Of a stretch of 64,000 nt of DNA, positions 1 to 2,440 are shown one piece after another (the first letter of the stretch is position 1; every line of letters starts with the position of its first letter). A model generated the notes under the pieces. That model saw nothing but the letters and a program-made list of their open reading frames with translations, was not told where the DNA came from and ran no database searches. The stretch is from the human T2T-CHM13v2.0 reference genome, Homo sapiens. The stretch lies in assembly GCF_009914755.1 (NCBI RefSeq), contig NC_060933.1, one strand, 5' to 3'. Both the position numbers and the translations under genes were made by a program.

Positions 1-2440
1 GGAATTTATCCATTTCTTCTAGATTTTCTAGTTTATTTGTATAGAGGTGTTTATAGGTGTTTATAGTATTCTCTGATAGTAGTTTGTATTTCTGTGGGAT
101 CGGTGGTGAGATCCCCTTTATCATTTTTTATTGTGTCTATTTGATTCTTCTCTCTTTTCTTGTTTATTAATATTGCTAGCAGTCTTATCTATTTTGTTGA
201 TCTTTTCAAAAAACGAGCTCCTGGATTCATTGACTTTTTGAAGGGTTTTTTGTGTCTCTATCTCCTTCAGTTCTGCTCTGATCTTATCTATTTCTTGCCT
301 TCTGCTAGCTTTTGAATTTGATTGCTCTTGCTTCTGTAATTCTTTAATTGTGATGTTAGGGTGTCGATTGTAGATCTTTCTTGCTTTCTCTTGTGGGCAT
401 TTAGTGCTGTAAATTTCCCTCTACACACTTCCTTAACTATGTCCCAGAGATTCTGGTATGTTGTGTCTTTGTTCTCATTGGTCTCAAATAACATCTTTAT
501 TTCTGCCTTCATTTTGTTATTTACTGAGTAGTCATTTAGGAGCAGGTTGTTCAGTTTCCATGTAGTTGAGCACTTTTGAGTGAGTTTCTTAATCCTGAGT
601 TCTAGTTTGATTGCACTGTGGTCTGAGAGACAGTTTGTTATAATTTCTCATCTTTTACATTTGCTGAGGAGTGTTTTATTTCCAATTATGTGGTCAATTT
701 TAGAATAAGTGCAACGTGGTGTTGAGAAGAATGTATATTCTGTTGATTTGGGGTGGAGAGTTCTGTAGATGTCTGTTAGGTCTGCTTGGTGCAGAGCTGA
801 GTTCAAGTCCTGGATATCCTTGTTAACCTTCTGTCTCGTTGATCTGTCTAATATTGACAGTGGGGTTTTAAAGTCTTCCATTATTATTGTATGGGAGTCT
901 AAGTCTCTTTGTAGGTCTCTAAGGACTTGCTTTATGAATCTGGGTGCTCCTGTATTGGGCGAATATATATTTAGGACAGTTAGTTTTTCTTGTTGAATTG
1001 ATCCCTTTACCATTATGTAACGGCCTTCTTTGTCTCTTTTGATCTTTGTCAGTTTAAAGTCTGTTTTATCAGAGACTAGGATTGCAACTCCTGTTTTTTT
1101 TTTTTTTTTTTTTTTGCTTTCCATTTGCTTGGTAGATCTTCCTCCATCCCTTTATTTTGAGCCTCTGTGTGTCTCTGCACGTGAGATGGGTCTCCTGTAT
1201 ACAGCACACTGATGGGTCTTGACTCTTTATGCAATTTGCCAGTCTGTGTCTTTTACTTGGGACATTTAGCCCATTTACATTTAAGGTTAATACTGTTATG
1301 TGTGAATCTGATCCTGTCATTATGATGTTAGCTGGTTATTTTGCCTGTTAATTGATGCAGTTTCTTCCTAGCCTTGATAGTCTTTACAATTTGGTATGTT
1401 TTTGCAGTGGCTGGTACCAGTTGTTCCTTTCCATGTTTAGTGCTTTCTTCAGGAGCTCTTGTAAGGCAGGCCTGGTGGTGACAAAATCTCTCAGCATTTG
1501 TTTGTCTGAAAAGGATTTTATTTCTCCTTCACTTATGAAGTTTAGTTTGGCTGGATATGAAATTCTGGGTTGAAAATTCTTTTCTTTAAGAATGTTGAAT
1601 ATTGGCCCTCACTCTCTTCTGGCTTGTAGGGTTTCTGCCAAGAGATCCGCTGTTAGTCTCATGGGCTTCCCTTGTTGGTGAACTGAACTTTCTCTCTGGC
1701 TGCCCTTAACATTTTTTCCTTCATTTCAATCTTGGTGAATCTGACAATCGTGCATCTTGGGATTGTTCTTTTCGAGGAGTATCTTTGTGGTGTTCTCTGT
1801 ATTTCCTGAATTTGAATGTTGTCTTGTCTTGCTAGGTTGGAGAAGTTCTCCTGGATAATATCCTGAAGAGTGTTTTCTAACTTGGTTCCATTCTCCCCGT
1901 CACTTTCAGGTACACCAATCAAATGCAGGTTTGGTCTTTTCACATAGTCCCAGACTTCTTGGAGGCCTTGTTCATTTCTTTTTACTCTTTTTTTCTCTAA
2001 TCATGTCTTCTCACTTCATTTCATTCATTTGATCTTCAGTCACTGATATCCTTTCTTCCACTTGATCGAATTGGCTATTGAAGCTTGTGCATGCATCACG
2101 AAATTCTCGTGCTGTGTTTTTCAGCTGCATCAGGTCATTTAAGTTCTTCTCTACACTGCTTATGCTATTTAGCCGTTCGCCTGACCTTTTTGCAAGGTTT
2201 TTAGCTTCCTTGTGATGGGTTAGAACATGCTCCTTTAGCTCGGAGAAGTTTGTTATTACCGACCTTCTGAACCCTACTTCTGTCAACTCGTCAAACTCAT
2301 TCTCCATCCGGTTTTGTTCTGTTGGTGGTGAGGAGCTGTGATCCTTAGTTGCAAATGCAGAAATCACCCATCTTCTGCGTTGATCTCTGTGGGAGCTGCA
2401 GACTGGAGCTGTTCCTATTTGGCCATCTTGGAAGCGCTCG
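1..2440 (-). mobile_element. L1PA (roughly L1PA6-8 age) 5' part: first ~97 nt of 5'UTR joined to ORF1, then ORF2 endonuclease region; continues off the left edge; frameshifted and dead
   Basis: Minus-strand ORF1p fragments (MENEFDELTEVGFRRS, MKRPNLHLIGVPESDGENGTKLENTLQDIIQENF) and ORF2p start MTGSDSHITVLTLNVNGLN at 1320; L1 5' terminus CAAGATGGCCAAATAGGAACAGCTCC (YY1 site) at ~2405-2430. Confidence 0.95.

What the first reader, a model, noticed from the sequence alone, without database searches (positions are those of the whole stretch)
2300..2440. L1 integrated as a spliced RNA (SpIRE 97/976-type junction)
Seen: on the minus strand, about the first 97 nt of the L1 5'UTR (2440-2344, ...TTCTGCATTTGCAACTAAG) are fused directly to ORF1 sequence GATCACAGCTCCTC (2343 and below). 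Established: L1 has a splice donor after nt 97 (CTGAG|GTACC) and an acceptor inside ORF1 at about nt 976 (CCAAAG|GA), and retrotransposed products of this splice are termed SpIRE97/976. Inference: ~0.9 kb, including most of the sense promoter, the antisense promoter/ORF0 and the ORF1 start codon, was removed by splicing before integration. The antisense promoter would have fired in the host gene's direction. The ORF1 wording looks older (L1PA6-8) than the young subfamilies usually surveyed, so this copy may be uncatalogued.
Basis: partly seen in the sequence, partly recalled or inferred. Interest (0 to 1): 0.75.

Follow-up and report, generated by a model that had tools for sequence, protein, structure and literature searches.

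The report
Old spliced L1 insertion (SpIRE97/976 type)
This is an old, dead L1 retrotransposon copy that was made from a spliced L1 RNA; it belongs to a known class, but it is older than the published examples and is missing from the published list.

Summary
On the minus strand, L1 5'UTR sequence (window 2442-2344) abuts ORF1 sequence at 2344|2343.

- **Splice sites.** In unspliced relatives from the same genome, the missing 972-1056 nt start with GT right after ...CAACTGAG. They end with AG right before GATC[A/G]CAGCTCC.
- **Insertion hallmarks.** The element is about 5.2 kb and colinear to its 3' end. It has an A-rich tail, a 16/18-matching target-site duplication and a TTTT/A nick site. It was therefore inserted already spliced.
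- **Caveat.** This copy reads AAG, not GAG, before the junction. That is either one later G>A change, or the breakpoints sit 3 nt upstream on both sides. All 29 other junction copies read GAG, and 4% of unspliced copies also carry AAG, so a later substitution fits best.
- **Census.** A whole-genome pattern search finds 30 such junctions in T2T-CHM13. Eleven match the Larson et al. 2018 list; 19, including this one, do not.
- **Age.** On a tree this copy sits below every published copy (L1PA2-4, one L1PA4-6), with an older ORF1 form. Its age is roughly 30-45 My. The subfamily name could not be assigned; L1PA7-10 is inferred.

Verdict: a correct reading and a new member of a known kind. Interest is low to moderate.

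The parts
2443..2460 (-). 5' copy of the target-site duplication (AAAAAACAACTTGTCCAG, read on the minus strand)
   Evidence: It matches 16 of 18 bases of AAAAAAAAACTTTTCCAG, which directly follows the A-rich tail at window about -2755..-2772, outside the window in locus L009. The opposite strand reads TTTTTT/AGG, which fits the L1 endonuclease consensus TTTT/A quoted in Larson.
2344..2442 (-). L1 5'UTR 'exon 1': the element's first ~99 nt, up to the splice donor (L1.3 nt ~1-97)
   Evidence: It aligns to the start of full-length relatives at 87-91% identity over 91 nt. The 5' terminus is comparable to that of relatives.
2343..2344 (-). Splice junction (exon 1 G at 2344 joined to ORF1 G at 2343)
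   Evidence: The same join is found at 29 other loci.
2346..2346 (-). Private A at donor position -3 (GAG in all other junction copies)
   Evidence: 27 of 27 aligned junction copies read GAG, as do the 2 copies that were not fetched. Among unspliced copies AAG|GT occurs 57 times and GAG|GT 1354 times.
1384..2343 (-). ORF1 remnant, from codon 23 to the TAA stop at 1386-1384. It lacks the start codon. The first in-frame ATG is at 2307-2305. The frame is now broken by stops and frameshifts.
   Evidence: The translation reads DHSSSPPTEQNRMENEFDEL...QKHTKL*, with internal stops. The acceptor position is fixed.
1321..1383 (-). Inter-ORF spacer
   Evidence: It lies between the ORF1 stop and the ORF2 ATG. 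Larson gives 63 bp for this spacer (passage).
1..1320 (-). ORF2, starting at the ATG at 1320-1318 and running off the window. The rest of the element (ORF2, 3'UTR, A-rich tail) lies at window 0..-2761, which is T2T chr9:15,683,239-15,686,000.
   Evidence: A single colinear alignment runs from the junction to the 3' end against L016 (89.5% over 5141 columns) and L017. The element's own extent is given.

Best explanation
A full-length L1 RNA of an old L1PA subfamily was transcribed from its own 5' start. It was spliced from the 5'UTR donor (GAG|GT, L1.3 G98U99) to the acceptor inside ORF1 (AAAG|GA, L1.3 A974G975). That splice removed about 1.0 kb: most of the 5'UTR plus the first 22 ORF1 codons. 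The spliced RNA was then copied into an intron of CCDC171, antisense to the gene, by ordinary target-primed reverse transcription.

The spliced RNA cannot make full ORF1p, so ORF1p must have come from another L1 in trans. This last point is inferred from Larson's assays on L1.3.

The copy was dead on arrival: it had no ORF1 start and lacked most of the promoter. It has since decayed, and one of its later changes is the G>A three bases before the join.

Shown here: the junction, GT..AG in relatives, the insertion hallmarks, recurrence at other loci, and relative age. Inferred: trans-complementation, absolute age, and the subfamily name.
For: 1. **Exact join.** Window 2344|2343 joins 5'UTR sequence to ORF1 sequence.
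2. **GT..AG in relatives.** The missing piece starts with GT in 5 of 6 full-length relatives examined (the sixth was unresolved). It ends with AG in 6 of 6, behind a pyrimidine run CCTCTTCTCCTCC.
3. **Insertion hallmarks.** There is a 16/18 target-site duplication flanking the whole element, an A-rich tail and a TTTTTT/AGG nick site.
4. **Colinearity and length.** The element is colinear from the join to the 3' end and about 5.2 kb long. Ten of the 11 published copies are listed at 5064-5232 bp and one at 4058 bp.
5. **Recurrence.** The same join occurs at 29 other loci, each with different flanking sequence where examined (27 fetched copies; flanks; census). These include all 11 published SpIRE97/976 copies. 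Such recurrence fits a sequence-directed process.
6. **Missing piece is absent locally.** The 998-nt piece taken from the nearest relative has no match in the window or in the 7 kb beyond it.
7. **Published experiments.** For L1.3, this splice removes 66 nt of ORF1 including the AUG. It yields truncated ORF1p, and the spliced RNA moves only when ORF1p is supplied in trans (Larson sections 13 and 15).
Against: - This copy reads AAG|GA, not GAG|GA. A deletion with both breakpoints 3 nt upstream of the splice sites would need no substitution.
- No orthologous or empty site could be examined. A later genomic deletion is therefore excluded by probability, not by observation.
- No RNA evidence exists for this splice in the old subfamily itself.
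- The target-site duplication overlaps the A-rich tail. Only 10-12 of its bases are independent of the A-run, and it carries 2 mismatches.
Confidence: 0.93

Rival explanations
1. A full-length L1 inserted intact, and about 1 kb was later lost by a genomic deletion whose ends happen to lie at, or 3 nt before, the splice sites.
For: With the breakpoints set 3 nt upstream on both sides, the alignment needs no mismatch. No ortholog was available to exclude this.
Against: Both ends would have to fall within 3 nt of the two sites used by 29 other independent copies. There is no microhomology at the shifted breakpoints (CT|GA ... CA|AA). A single G>A is expected at the observed background: 57 of 1411 unspliced copies (4.0%) carry it, and this copy's own end branch is 0.066 changes per site.
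Confidence: 0.03
2. The internal gap arose during reverse transcription, by a template jump of the L1 reverse transcriptase from ORF1 to the 5'UTR on an unspliced RNA, and not by splicing.
For: Internal rearrangements during L1 integration are known (recalled, not checked here). The end product would carry the same target-site duplication and tail.
Against: A jump has no reason to land exactly on GT...AG borders, nor to recur at the same two bases in 30 loci spread across many subfamilies. According to Larson et al., Belancio and colleagues identified this G98U99/A974G975 splicing event; Larson report RT-PCR detection only for the intra-5'UTR events, a section I saw by heading alone.
Confidence: 0.02
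3. Two separate events: a 5'-truncated L1 starting by chance at ORF1 nt 976, next to an unrelated ~99-nt fragment of an L1 5'UTR.
For: 5'-truncated L1 copies are very common (established knowledge).
Against: The target-site duplication brackets the 5'UTR piece and the body as one unit. Both pieces share one orientation and a similar level of divergence from relatives (87-91% and 88-91%). The same composite exists at 29 other loci.
Confidence: 0.01

Closest known systems
SpIRE97/976 (5'UTR/ORF1 spliced integrated retrotransposed element; Belancio et al. 2006, Larson et al. 2018, PMC5860796)
   Same: It uses the same donor and the same acceptor. It loses the same parts: most of the 5'UTR plus ORF1 codons 1-22. 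Its length of about 5.2 kb matches, it carries the same TPRT hallmarks, and it lies in an intron in the opposite orientation, like many of the listed copies.
   Different: It is not among the 11 listed copies. It belongs to an older L1PA lineage with a different ORF1 coiled-coil form, 9 nt longer (...GFRRSVITNFSELKEH...), and its relatives have a removed piece of about 1.0 kb rather than 878 nt. It reads AAG instead of GAG before the join.
SpIRE97/622, 97/790 and 97/853 (intra-5'UTR SpIREs; Larson et al. 2018)
   Same: They use the same donor after nt 97 and arise the same way, by retrotransposition of a spliced L1 RNA.
   Different: Their acceptors lie inside the 5'UTR, so ORF1 stays whole. 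Here the acceptor is inside ORF1. Larson report no SpIRE97/622 in subfamilies older than L1PA6.
Processed pseudogenes made by L1 in trans
   Same: A spliced RNA is copied into the genome by L1 proteins supplied in trans. The product carries a target-site duplication and a poly(A) tail (established knowledge; trans requirement).
   Different: The template here is L1's own RNA, and it still encodes ORF2p.

Membership tests
SpIRE97/976 | 5'UTR sequence ending at the nt-97 donor directly abuts ORF1 sequence starting at nt 976 (L1.3 numbering) | tested here: met
   Join at window 2344|2343. Placed by alignment to 6 full-length relatives and to 27 other junction copies.
SpIRE97/976 | The removed piece begins with GT and ends with AG in unspliced elements | tested here: met
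   GT in 5 of 6 relatives (one unresolved) and AG in 6 of 6. Caveat: the borders in this copy are ambiguous by 3 nt because of AAG at 2346-2344.
SpIRE97/976 | Hallmarks of integration by TPRT around the whole element (target-site duplication, poly(A), endonuclease site) | tested here: met
   16/18 direct repeat, A-rich tail, TTTTTT/AGG.
SpIRE97/976 | Otherwise a complete L1 (ORF1 remainder, ORF2, 3'UTR), about 5.1-5.2 kb | tested here: met
   A single colinear alignment of 5141 columns to L016. The element is 5204 bp as delimited.
SpIRE97/976 | The junction was present at insertion: orthologs share it and none carries the full 5'UTR | not testable with these tools
   No primate genome other than the window's own assembly is held.
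SpIRE97/976 | Listed in the published catalogue | tested here: not met
   The SpIRE(97-976) sheet of the S1 Table has 11 rows, on chromosomes 14, 3, 12, 1, 6, 6, 4, X, 12, 2 and 15. This bears on novelty, not on kind.
Named L1PA subfamily (L1PA7, L1PA8, L1PA8A or L1PA10) | Diagnostic positions of the subfamily consensus (3' end, ORF1) | not testable with these tools
   No labelled consensus is held, and Khan et al. 2006 is not held. What is available:
- On the tree this copy lies below all copies labelled L1PA2-4 or L1PA4-6.
- Larson state the donor is conserved from L1PA1 to L1PA10.
- The ORF1 coiled coil is said to have changed in L1PA7-L1PA3.

The most novel reading that the evidence does not exclude
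Splicing from nt 97 into ORF1, followed by retrotransposition, has gone on for as long as this 5'UTR donor has existed. This copy, and two copies of another, apparently still older lineage (chr5:87.68 Mb and chr7:96.06 Mb in T2T), predate every published SpIRE (L1PA6 or younger, about 27 My). The class would then be about three times larger than catalogued (30 against 11 in one genome). That implies a steady low leak, about 1-1.5% of the 5'-intact copies counted for the CAACT-type subfamilies, which L1 never eliminated over 35-45 My.
Probability: 0.6. Interest if true: 0.35.

Novelty: new member of a known kind. Interest (0 to 1): 0.25.

Why it matters
**For this locus.** It corrects the annotation. 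The element is not a 5'-intact L1. It is a promoter-poor copy without an ORF1 start that could not have been a source element. The part of the 5'UTR that holds the antisense promoter and ORF0 in younger L1s is missing from it (per the literature seen, ORF0 occurs in L1HS-L1PA8).

**For the field.** The gain is modest. The published SpIRE lists rest on a probe built from L1.3 with a 95% identity cut-off, so they undercount old copies. A tolerant junction search finds 30 SpIRE97/976 junctions rather than 11, reaching into lineages older than any reported. This fits Larson's statement that the donor is conserved back to L1PA10, so specialists would not be surprised.

Tried and rejected
1. **Naming the subfamily.**
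   - Khan et al. 2006, Belancio et al. 2006 and Belancio et al. 2008 are not held.
   - The body of Table 2 in Wagstaff et al. is not in the text.
   - The ORF1 C-terminus (ours ...QKHTKL) resembles the L1PA8 primer-encoded ...QKHTKI rather than ...QNHAKM of L1PA1/4. However, the site varies among old copies, so it is not decisive.
2. **A 'SpIRE-only' amplifying lineage.** L048 and L049 group with 99% support. But L048's 39 best matches genome-wide, all at 89-90%, do not include L049, and their flanks differ. They are two insertions from one large old subfamily. Rejected.
3. **The A at donor -3 came from the source element and favoured splicing.** The A variant is found in 1 of 30 spliced copies and in 57 of 1411 unspliced copies. 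There is no enrichment, so this is not supported, though it is not excluded.
4. **The missing piece was moved nearby.** There is no match in the window or in the 7 kb beyond it. Rejected.
5. **The flank at 2461-3000 is an old L1 ORF1.** This was my reading by eye.
   - tblastn with this element's three frames found nothing.
   - The Pfam call failed because the translation contains stop codons.
   - A genome search gave only 3 weak 60-80-nt matches.
   - Left unverified.
6. **First junction pattern.** The 28-nt pattern was contaminated by unspliced copies at 2 or more mismatches. It was replaced by the 34-nt pattern.
8. **More neighbour loci.** Only four small loci were fetched afterwards.
9. 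**Literature search on 'SpIREs' alone**. It returned mostly unrelated papers.

Full report
**1. What is in the sequence**

Read on the minus strand, window 2460-2300 shows three things in order:
- an A-rich target sequence;
- about 99 nt that look like the start of a primate L1 5'UTR (CTCGAGCGCTTCCAAGATGGCCAAATAGGAACAGCTCC...GATTTCTGCATTTGCAACTAAG, window 2442-2344);
- with no gap, GATCACAGCTCCTCACCACCAACAGAACAAAACCGGATGGAGAATGAG... (2343 downward).

The last stretch translates as DHSSSPPTEQNRMENEFDEL..., which is the ORF1 protein from about residue 23.

**2. Test against unspliced relatives**

The window's own assembly (T2T-CHM13; the window is chr9:15,686,001-15,750,000) could be searched. 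I fetched six full-length relatives:
- L016 and L017, found through;
- L050-L053, the four best ORF1 matches, at 90-91% identity.

Results:
- In L016, L017, L050, L051 and L053 the sequence after ...TTTCCAACTGAG continues with GTACTT, GTACCT or GTATCT.
- In all six the sequence before GATC[A/G]CAGCTCC is ...CCTCTTCTCCTCCAAAG.
- The piece between is 1005, 1056, 998, 972 and 1003 nt long.
- L052's donor region was not resolved by my aligner.

So the gap begins at GT and ends at AG, behind a pyrimidine run. This matches the G98U99 donor and A974G975 acceptor that Larson et al. 2018 use to define SpIRE97/976 (section 7). The first in-frame ATG, at 2307-2305, lies 36 nt past the join. It corresponds to the AUG 102 nt downstream of the normal start that Larson describe for the truncated ORF1p (section 13).

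**3. The one blemish**

This copy reads AAG, not GAG, before the join (A at window 2346). The acceptor side also ends in AAG. An aligner therefore prefers to place the gap 3 nt upstream on both sides, with no mismatch.

I weighed a later G>A change against a shifted deletion:
- All 27 other junction copies that I aligned read GAG. So do the two I did not fetch.
- Among unspliced copies matching a 23-nt donor pattern, 57 read AAG|GT and 1354 read GAG|GT, which is 4.0%. That is the same as 1 in 30 among spliced copies.
- This copy's own end branch is 0.066 changes per site.

A single later transition is therefore unremarkable. A deletion that happened to end 3 nt before each of two splice sites used by 29 other copies is very unlikely. 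The same numbers give no support to the idea that an A at -3 in the source element favoured splicing.

**4. Inserted as a spliced RNA**

I joined the 7 kb below the window (L009) to the window. The element then runs colinearly from the join to its 3' end: 89.5% identity over 5141 columns to L016, and 89.5% over 5128 columns to L017. It ends in an A-rich tail.

The tail is followed by AAAAAAAAACTTTTCCAG. That matches AAAAAACAACTTGTCCAG, directly upstream of the L1 5' end (window 2460-2443), at 16 of 18 positions. The opposite strand of the target reads TTTTTT/AGG, a good L1 endonuclease site.

Further points:
- The 5' terminus is comparable to that of full-length relatives, with 9-11 nt before CCAAGATGG.
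- The element is 5204 bp as I delimited it. Ten of the 11 published copies are listed at 5064-5232 bp, and one at 4058 bp.
- The 998-nt piece removed, taken from the closest relative, has no match anywhere in the 64-kb window or in L009.

**5. Recurrence and census**

One search already showed five other loci that match across the join. A 34-nt junction pattern with up to 3 mismatches gave 32 hits, with 0 for the reversed control. I dropped three:
- two acrocentric hits (chr21 and chr22) whose 'exon 1' half reads TTTCCTTCAAAG, which is the normal ORF1 sequence upstream of the acceptor;
- one hit on chr8 that shares only TGAG with exon 1.

That leaves 29. Adding chrX:56.91 Mb (L014), which has a 2-nt deletion at the join and was seen only, gives 30. 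A second pattern tuned to the old ORF1 form found no further copies.

All 11 copies in Larson's S1 Table can be matched to hits by chromosome and approximate position. This mapping is my inference from coordinates. The other 19 are not listed, among them three on chr9 (1.79 Mb, 13.32 Mb and this one). Larson required >95% identity to a 100-nt probe built from L1.3 (section 21), which explains the misses. The census is a lower bound.

**6. Relative age**

I built a maximum-likelihood tree on 1014 columns of ORF1-region sequence for 35 rows: this copy, 27 junction copies, six full-length relatives and L010. It shows the ladder expected for the single L1PA lineage.
- Copies that Larson label PA2, PA3, PA4-6 and PA4 sit at the young end.
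- Several unlabelled steps follow, then L041, then L016/L017.
- A basal group follows, holding this copy, L050-L053, L010 and the pair L048/L049.

This copy, L048 (chr5:87.68 Mb), L049 (chr7:96.06 Mb) and, in a variant form, L041 carry an ORF1 form that is 9 nt longer (...GFRRSVITNFSELKEH...). The unspliced old relatives share it.

End branches are 0.066 for this copy, against about 0.011 for PA2 (2 copies), 0.030 for PA3 (4 copies) and 0.032 for PA4 (3 copies).

With the L1PA4 age of about 18 My, which I recall from Khan et al. 2006 and could not check, this gives roughly 35-40 My. I quote 30-45 My as an inference. Larson put L1PA6 at about 27 My, and the donor's conservation at L1PA1-L1PA10, about 46 My. 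A passage in Campitelli et al. 2022 places the ORF1 coiled-coil turnover in L1PA7-L1PA3. Together these point to L1PA7-L1PA10, probably around L1PA8, but I could not apply any labelled consensus.

L048 and L049 appear to belong to a different and apparently still older subfamily. None of L048's 39 best neighbours is among this copy's best neighbours, and L049 is not among them either. These are therefore independent splicing events in at least two old subfamilies, not the offspring of one SpIRE.

**7. Mechanism**

*Shown here:*
- a join at canonical splice borders;
- the hallmarks of target-primed reverse transcription around the whole unit;
- recurrence of the same join at many loci and ages.

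*Taken from Larson's experiments on L1.3* (sections 13 and 15):
- the splice removes the ORF1 AUG and yields truncated ORF1p;
- the spliced RNA does not retrotranspose in cis;
- it moves at low levels when wild-type ORF1p is supplied in trans.

*Inferred for this copy:* its RNA was mobilised with ORF1p from another L1. It arrived without most of its promoter and was a dead end. Both ORFs are now broken.

**8. Context**

The element lies antisense in a CCDC171 intron, about 2.2 kb upstream of the exon at 4671-4809 (hub table). Nothing here tests whether that matters.

The flank at 2461-3000 is nearly unique in the genome. My impression that it is an ancient repeat remained unverified.

**9. Literature basis**

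| Paper | What I saw |
|---|---|
| Larson et al. 2018 (PMC5860796) | Abstract; sections 7, 8, 13, 15 and 21; part 1 of section 39; searched passages; the rows of the SpIRE(97-976) sheet of S1 Table. I did not open S1 Data. |
| Fernandes et al. 2020 (PMC7110667) | Searched passages only |
| Campitelli et al. 2022 (PMC9252281) | Searched passages only |
| Wagstaff et al. 2013 (PMC3525338) | Searched passages only |
| Preprint 10.1101/2025.02.02.635956 | Searched passages only |
| Primer PMC5860798 | Searched passages only |
| Khan et al. 2006; Belancio et al. 2006 and 2008 | Not held; anything from them is recalled or taken from Larson's account |

Searches for a wider SpIRE catalogue turned up none in the library. 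The library lacks most subscription journals, and RepeatMasker or Dfam annotation of this locus could not be consulted.

**10. Verdict**

The copy is a new, older member of a known class. It is unsurprising given the known conservation of the splice sites. The by-product, 30 rather than 11 junction copies in one genome, is a modest correction to the published count.

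Noticed in passing
L010 (T2T chr11:41,744,001-41,752,000), junction near locus position 2415: An old L1 copy in which the same nt-97 donor (...CAACTGAG) is joined to CCTCCACTGGTGATACCC... In six unspliced relatives this sequence directly follows ...TTGCTGTTCTGCAG. This is therefore another spliced-and-retrotransposed form, with an intra-5'UTR acceptor 268 nt upstream of the ORF1 acceptor. 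I did not establish whether it equals the published 97/790 site.
   Followed up: partly
T2T places listed (e.g. chr1:83.53, chr1:172.59, chr2:141.42, chr2:213.07, chr3:138.15, chr4:120.99, chr5:87.68, chr6:84.07, chr6:104.42, chr7:96.06, chr8:3.43, chr8:109.19, chr9:1.79, chr9:13.32, chr15:72.96, chr15:74.58, chrX:13.97, chrX:56.91 Mb): Eighteen further SpIRE97/976-type junction copies that are not in Larson's S1 Table. Most are of CAACTGAG|GAACGCAGCTCC type and sit between the labelled PA4 copies and the old group on the tree.
   Followed up: partly
L038 (chr7:144.39 Mb) and L040 (chr10:56.95 Mb): Unspliced L1 5'UTRs whose donor GT has mutated to GA (GAG|GAACACAGTTCA). They mimic the junction in a short pattern. 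One search shows their ORF1 part about 1.27 kb away, so they are not spliced copies.
   Followed up: yes
window 1101-1122 (minus strand): A run of about 22 A near the 5' end of the ORF2 region of this element. I recall, unchecked, that young L1 copies have only a short A stretch here; if so, this is a simple expansion.
   Followed up: no
window 2147-2442: The most 5' ~296 nt of this L1 (exon 1 plus the start of the ORF1 remnant) are not among the stretches masked as repeats in NCBI's file (hub table), although they are plainly L1.
   Followed up: no
window 26715-27329 and 46579-46863: Two other L1 fragments in the window. They match the ORF2 and 3' part of this element at 74.6% and 82.5% identity. 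They are older and unrelated to the finding.
   Followed up: no
L048, L049 (spliced) and L043, L047 (unspliced), first bases of the element: These copies start ...GGC[A/G]AGATGG instead of ...TTCCAAGATGG. This 5'-end variant appears to mark the still older subfamily to which the chr5 and chr7 spliced copies belong.
   Followed up: partly
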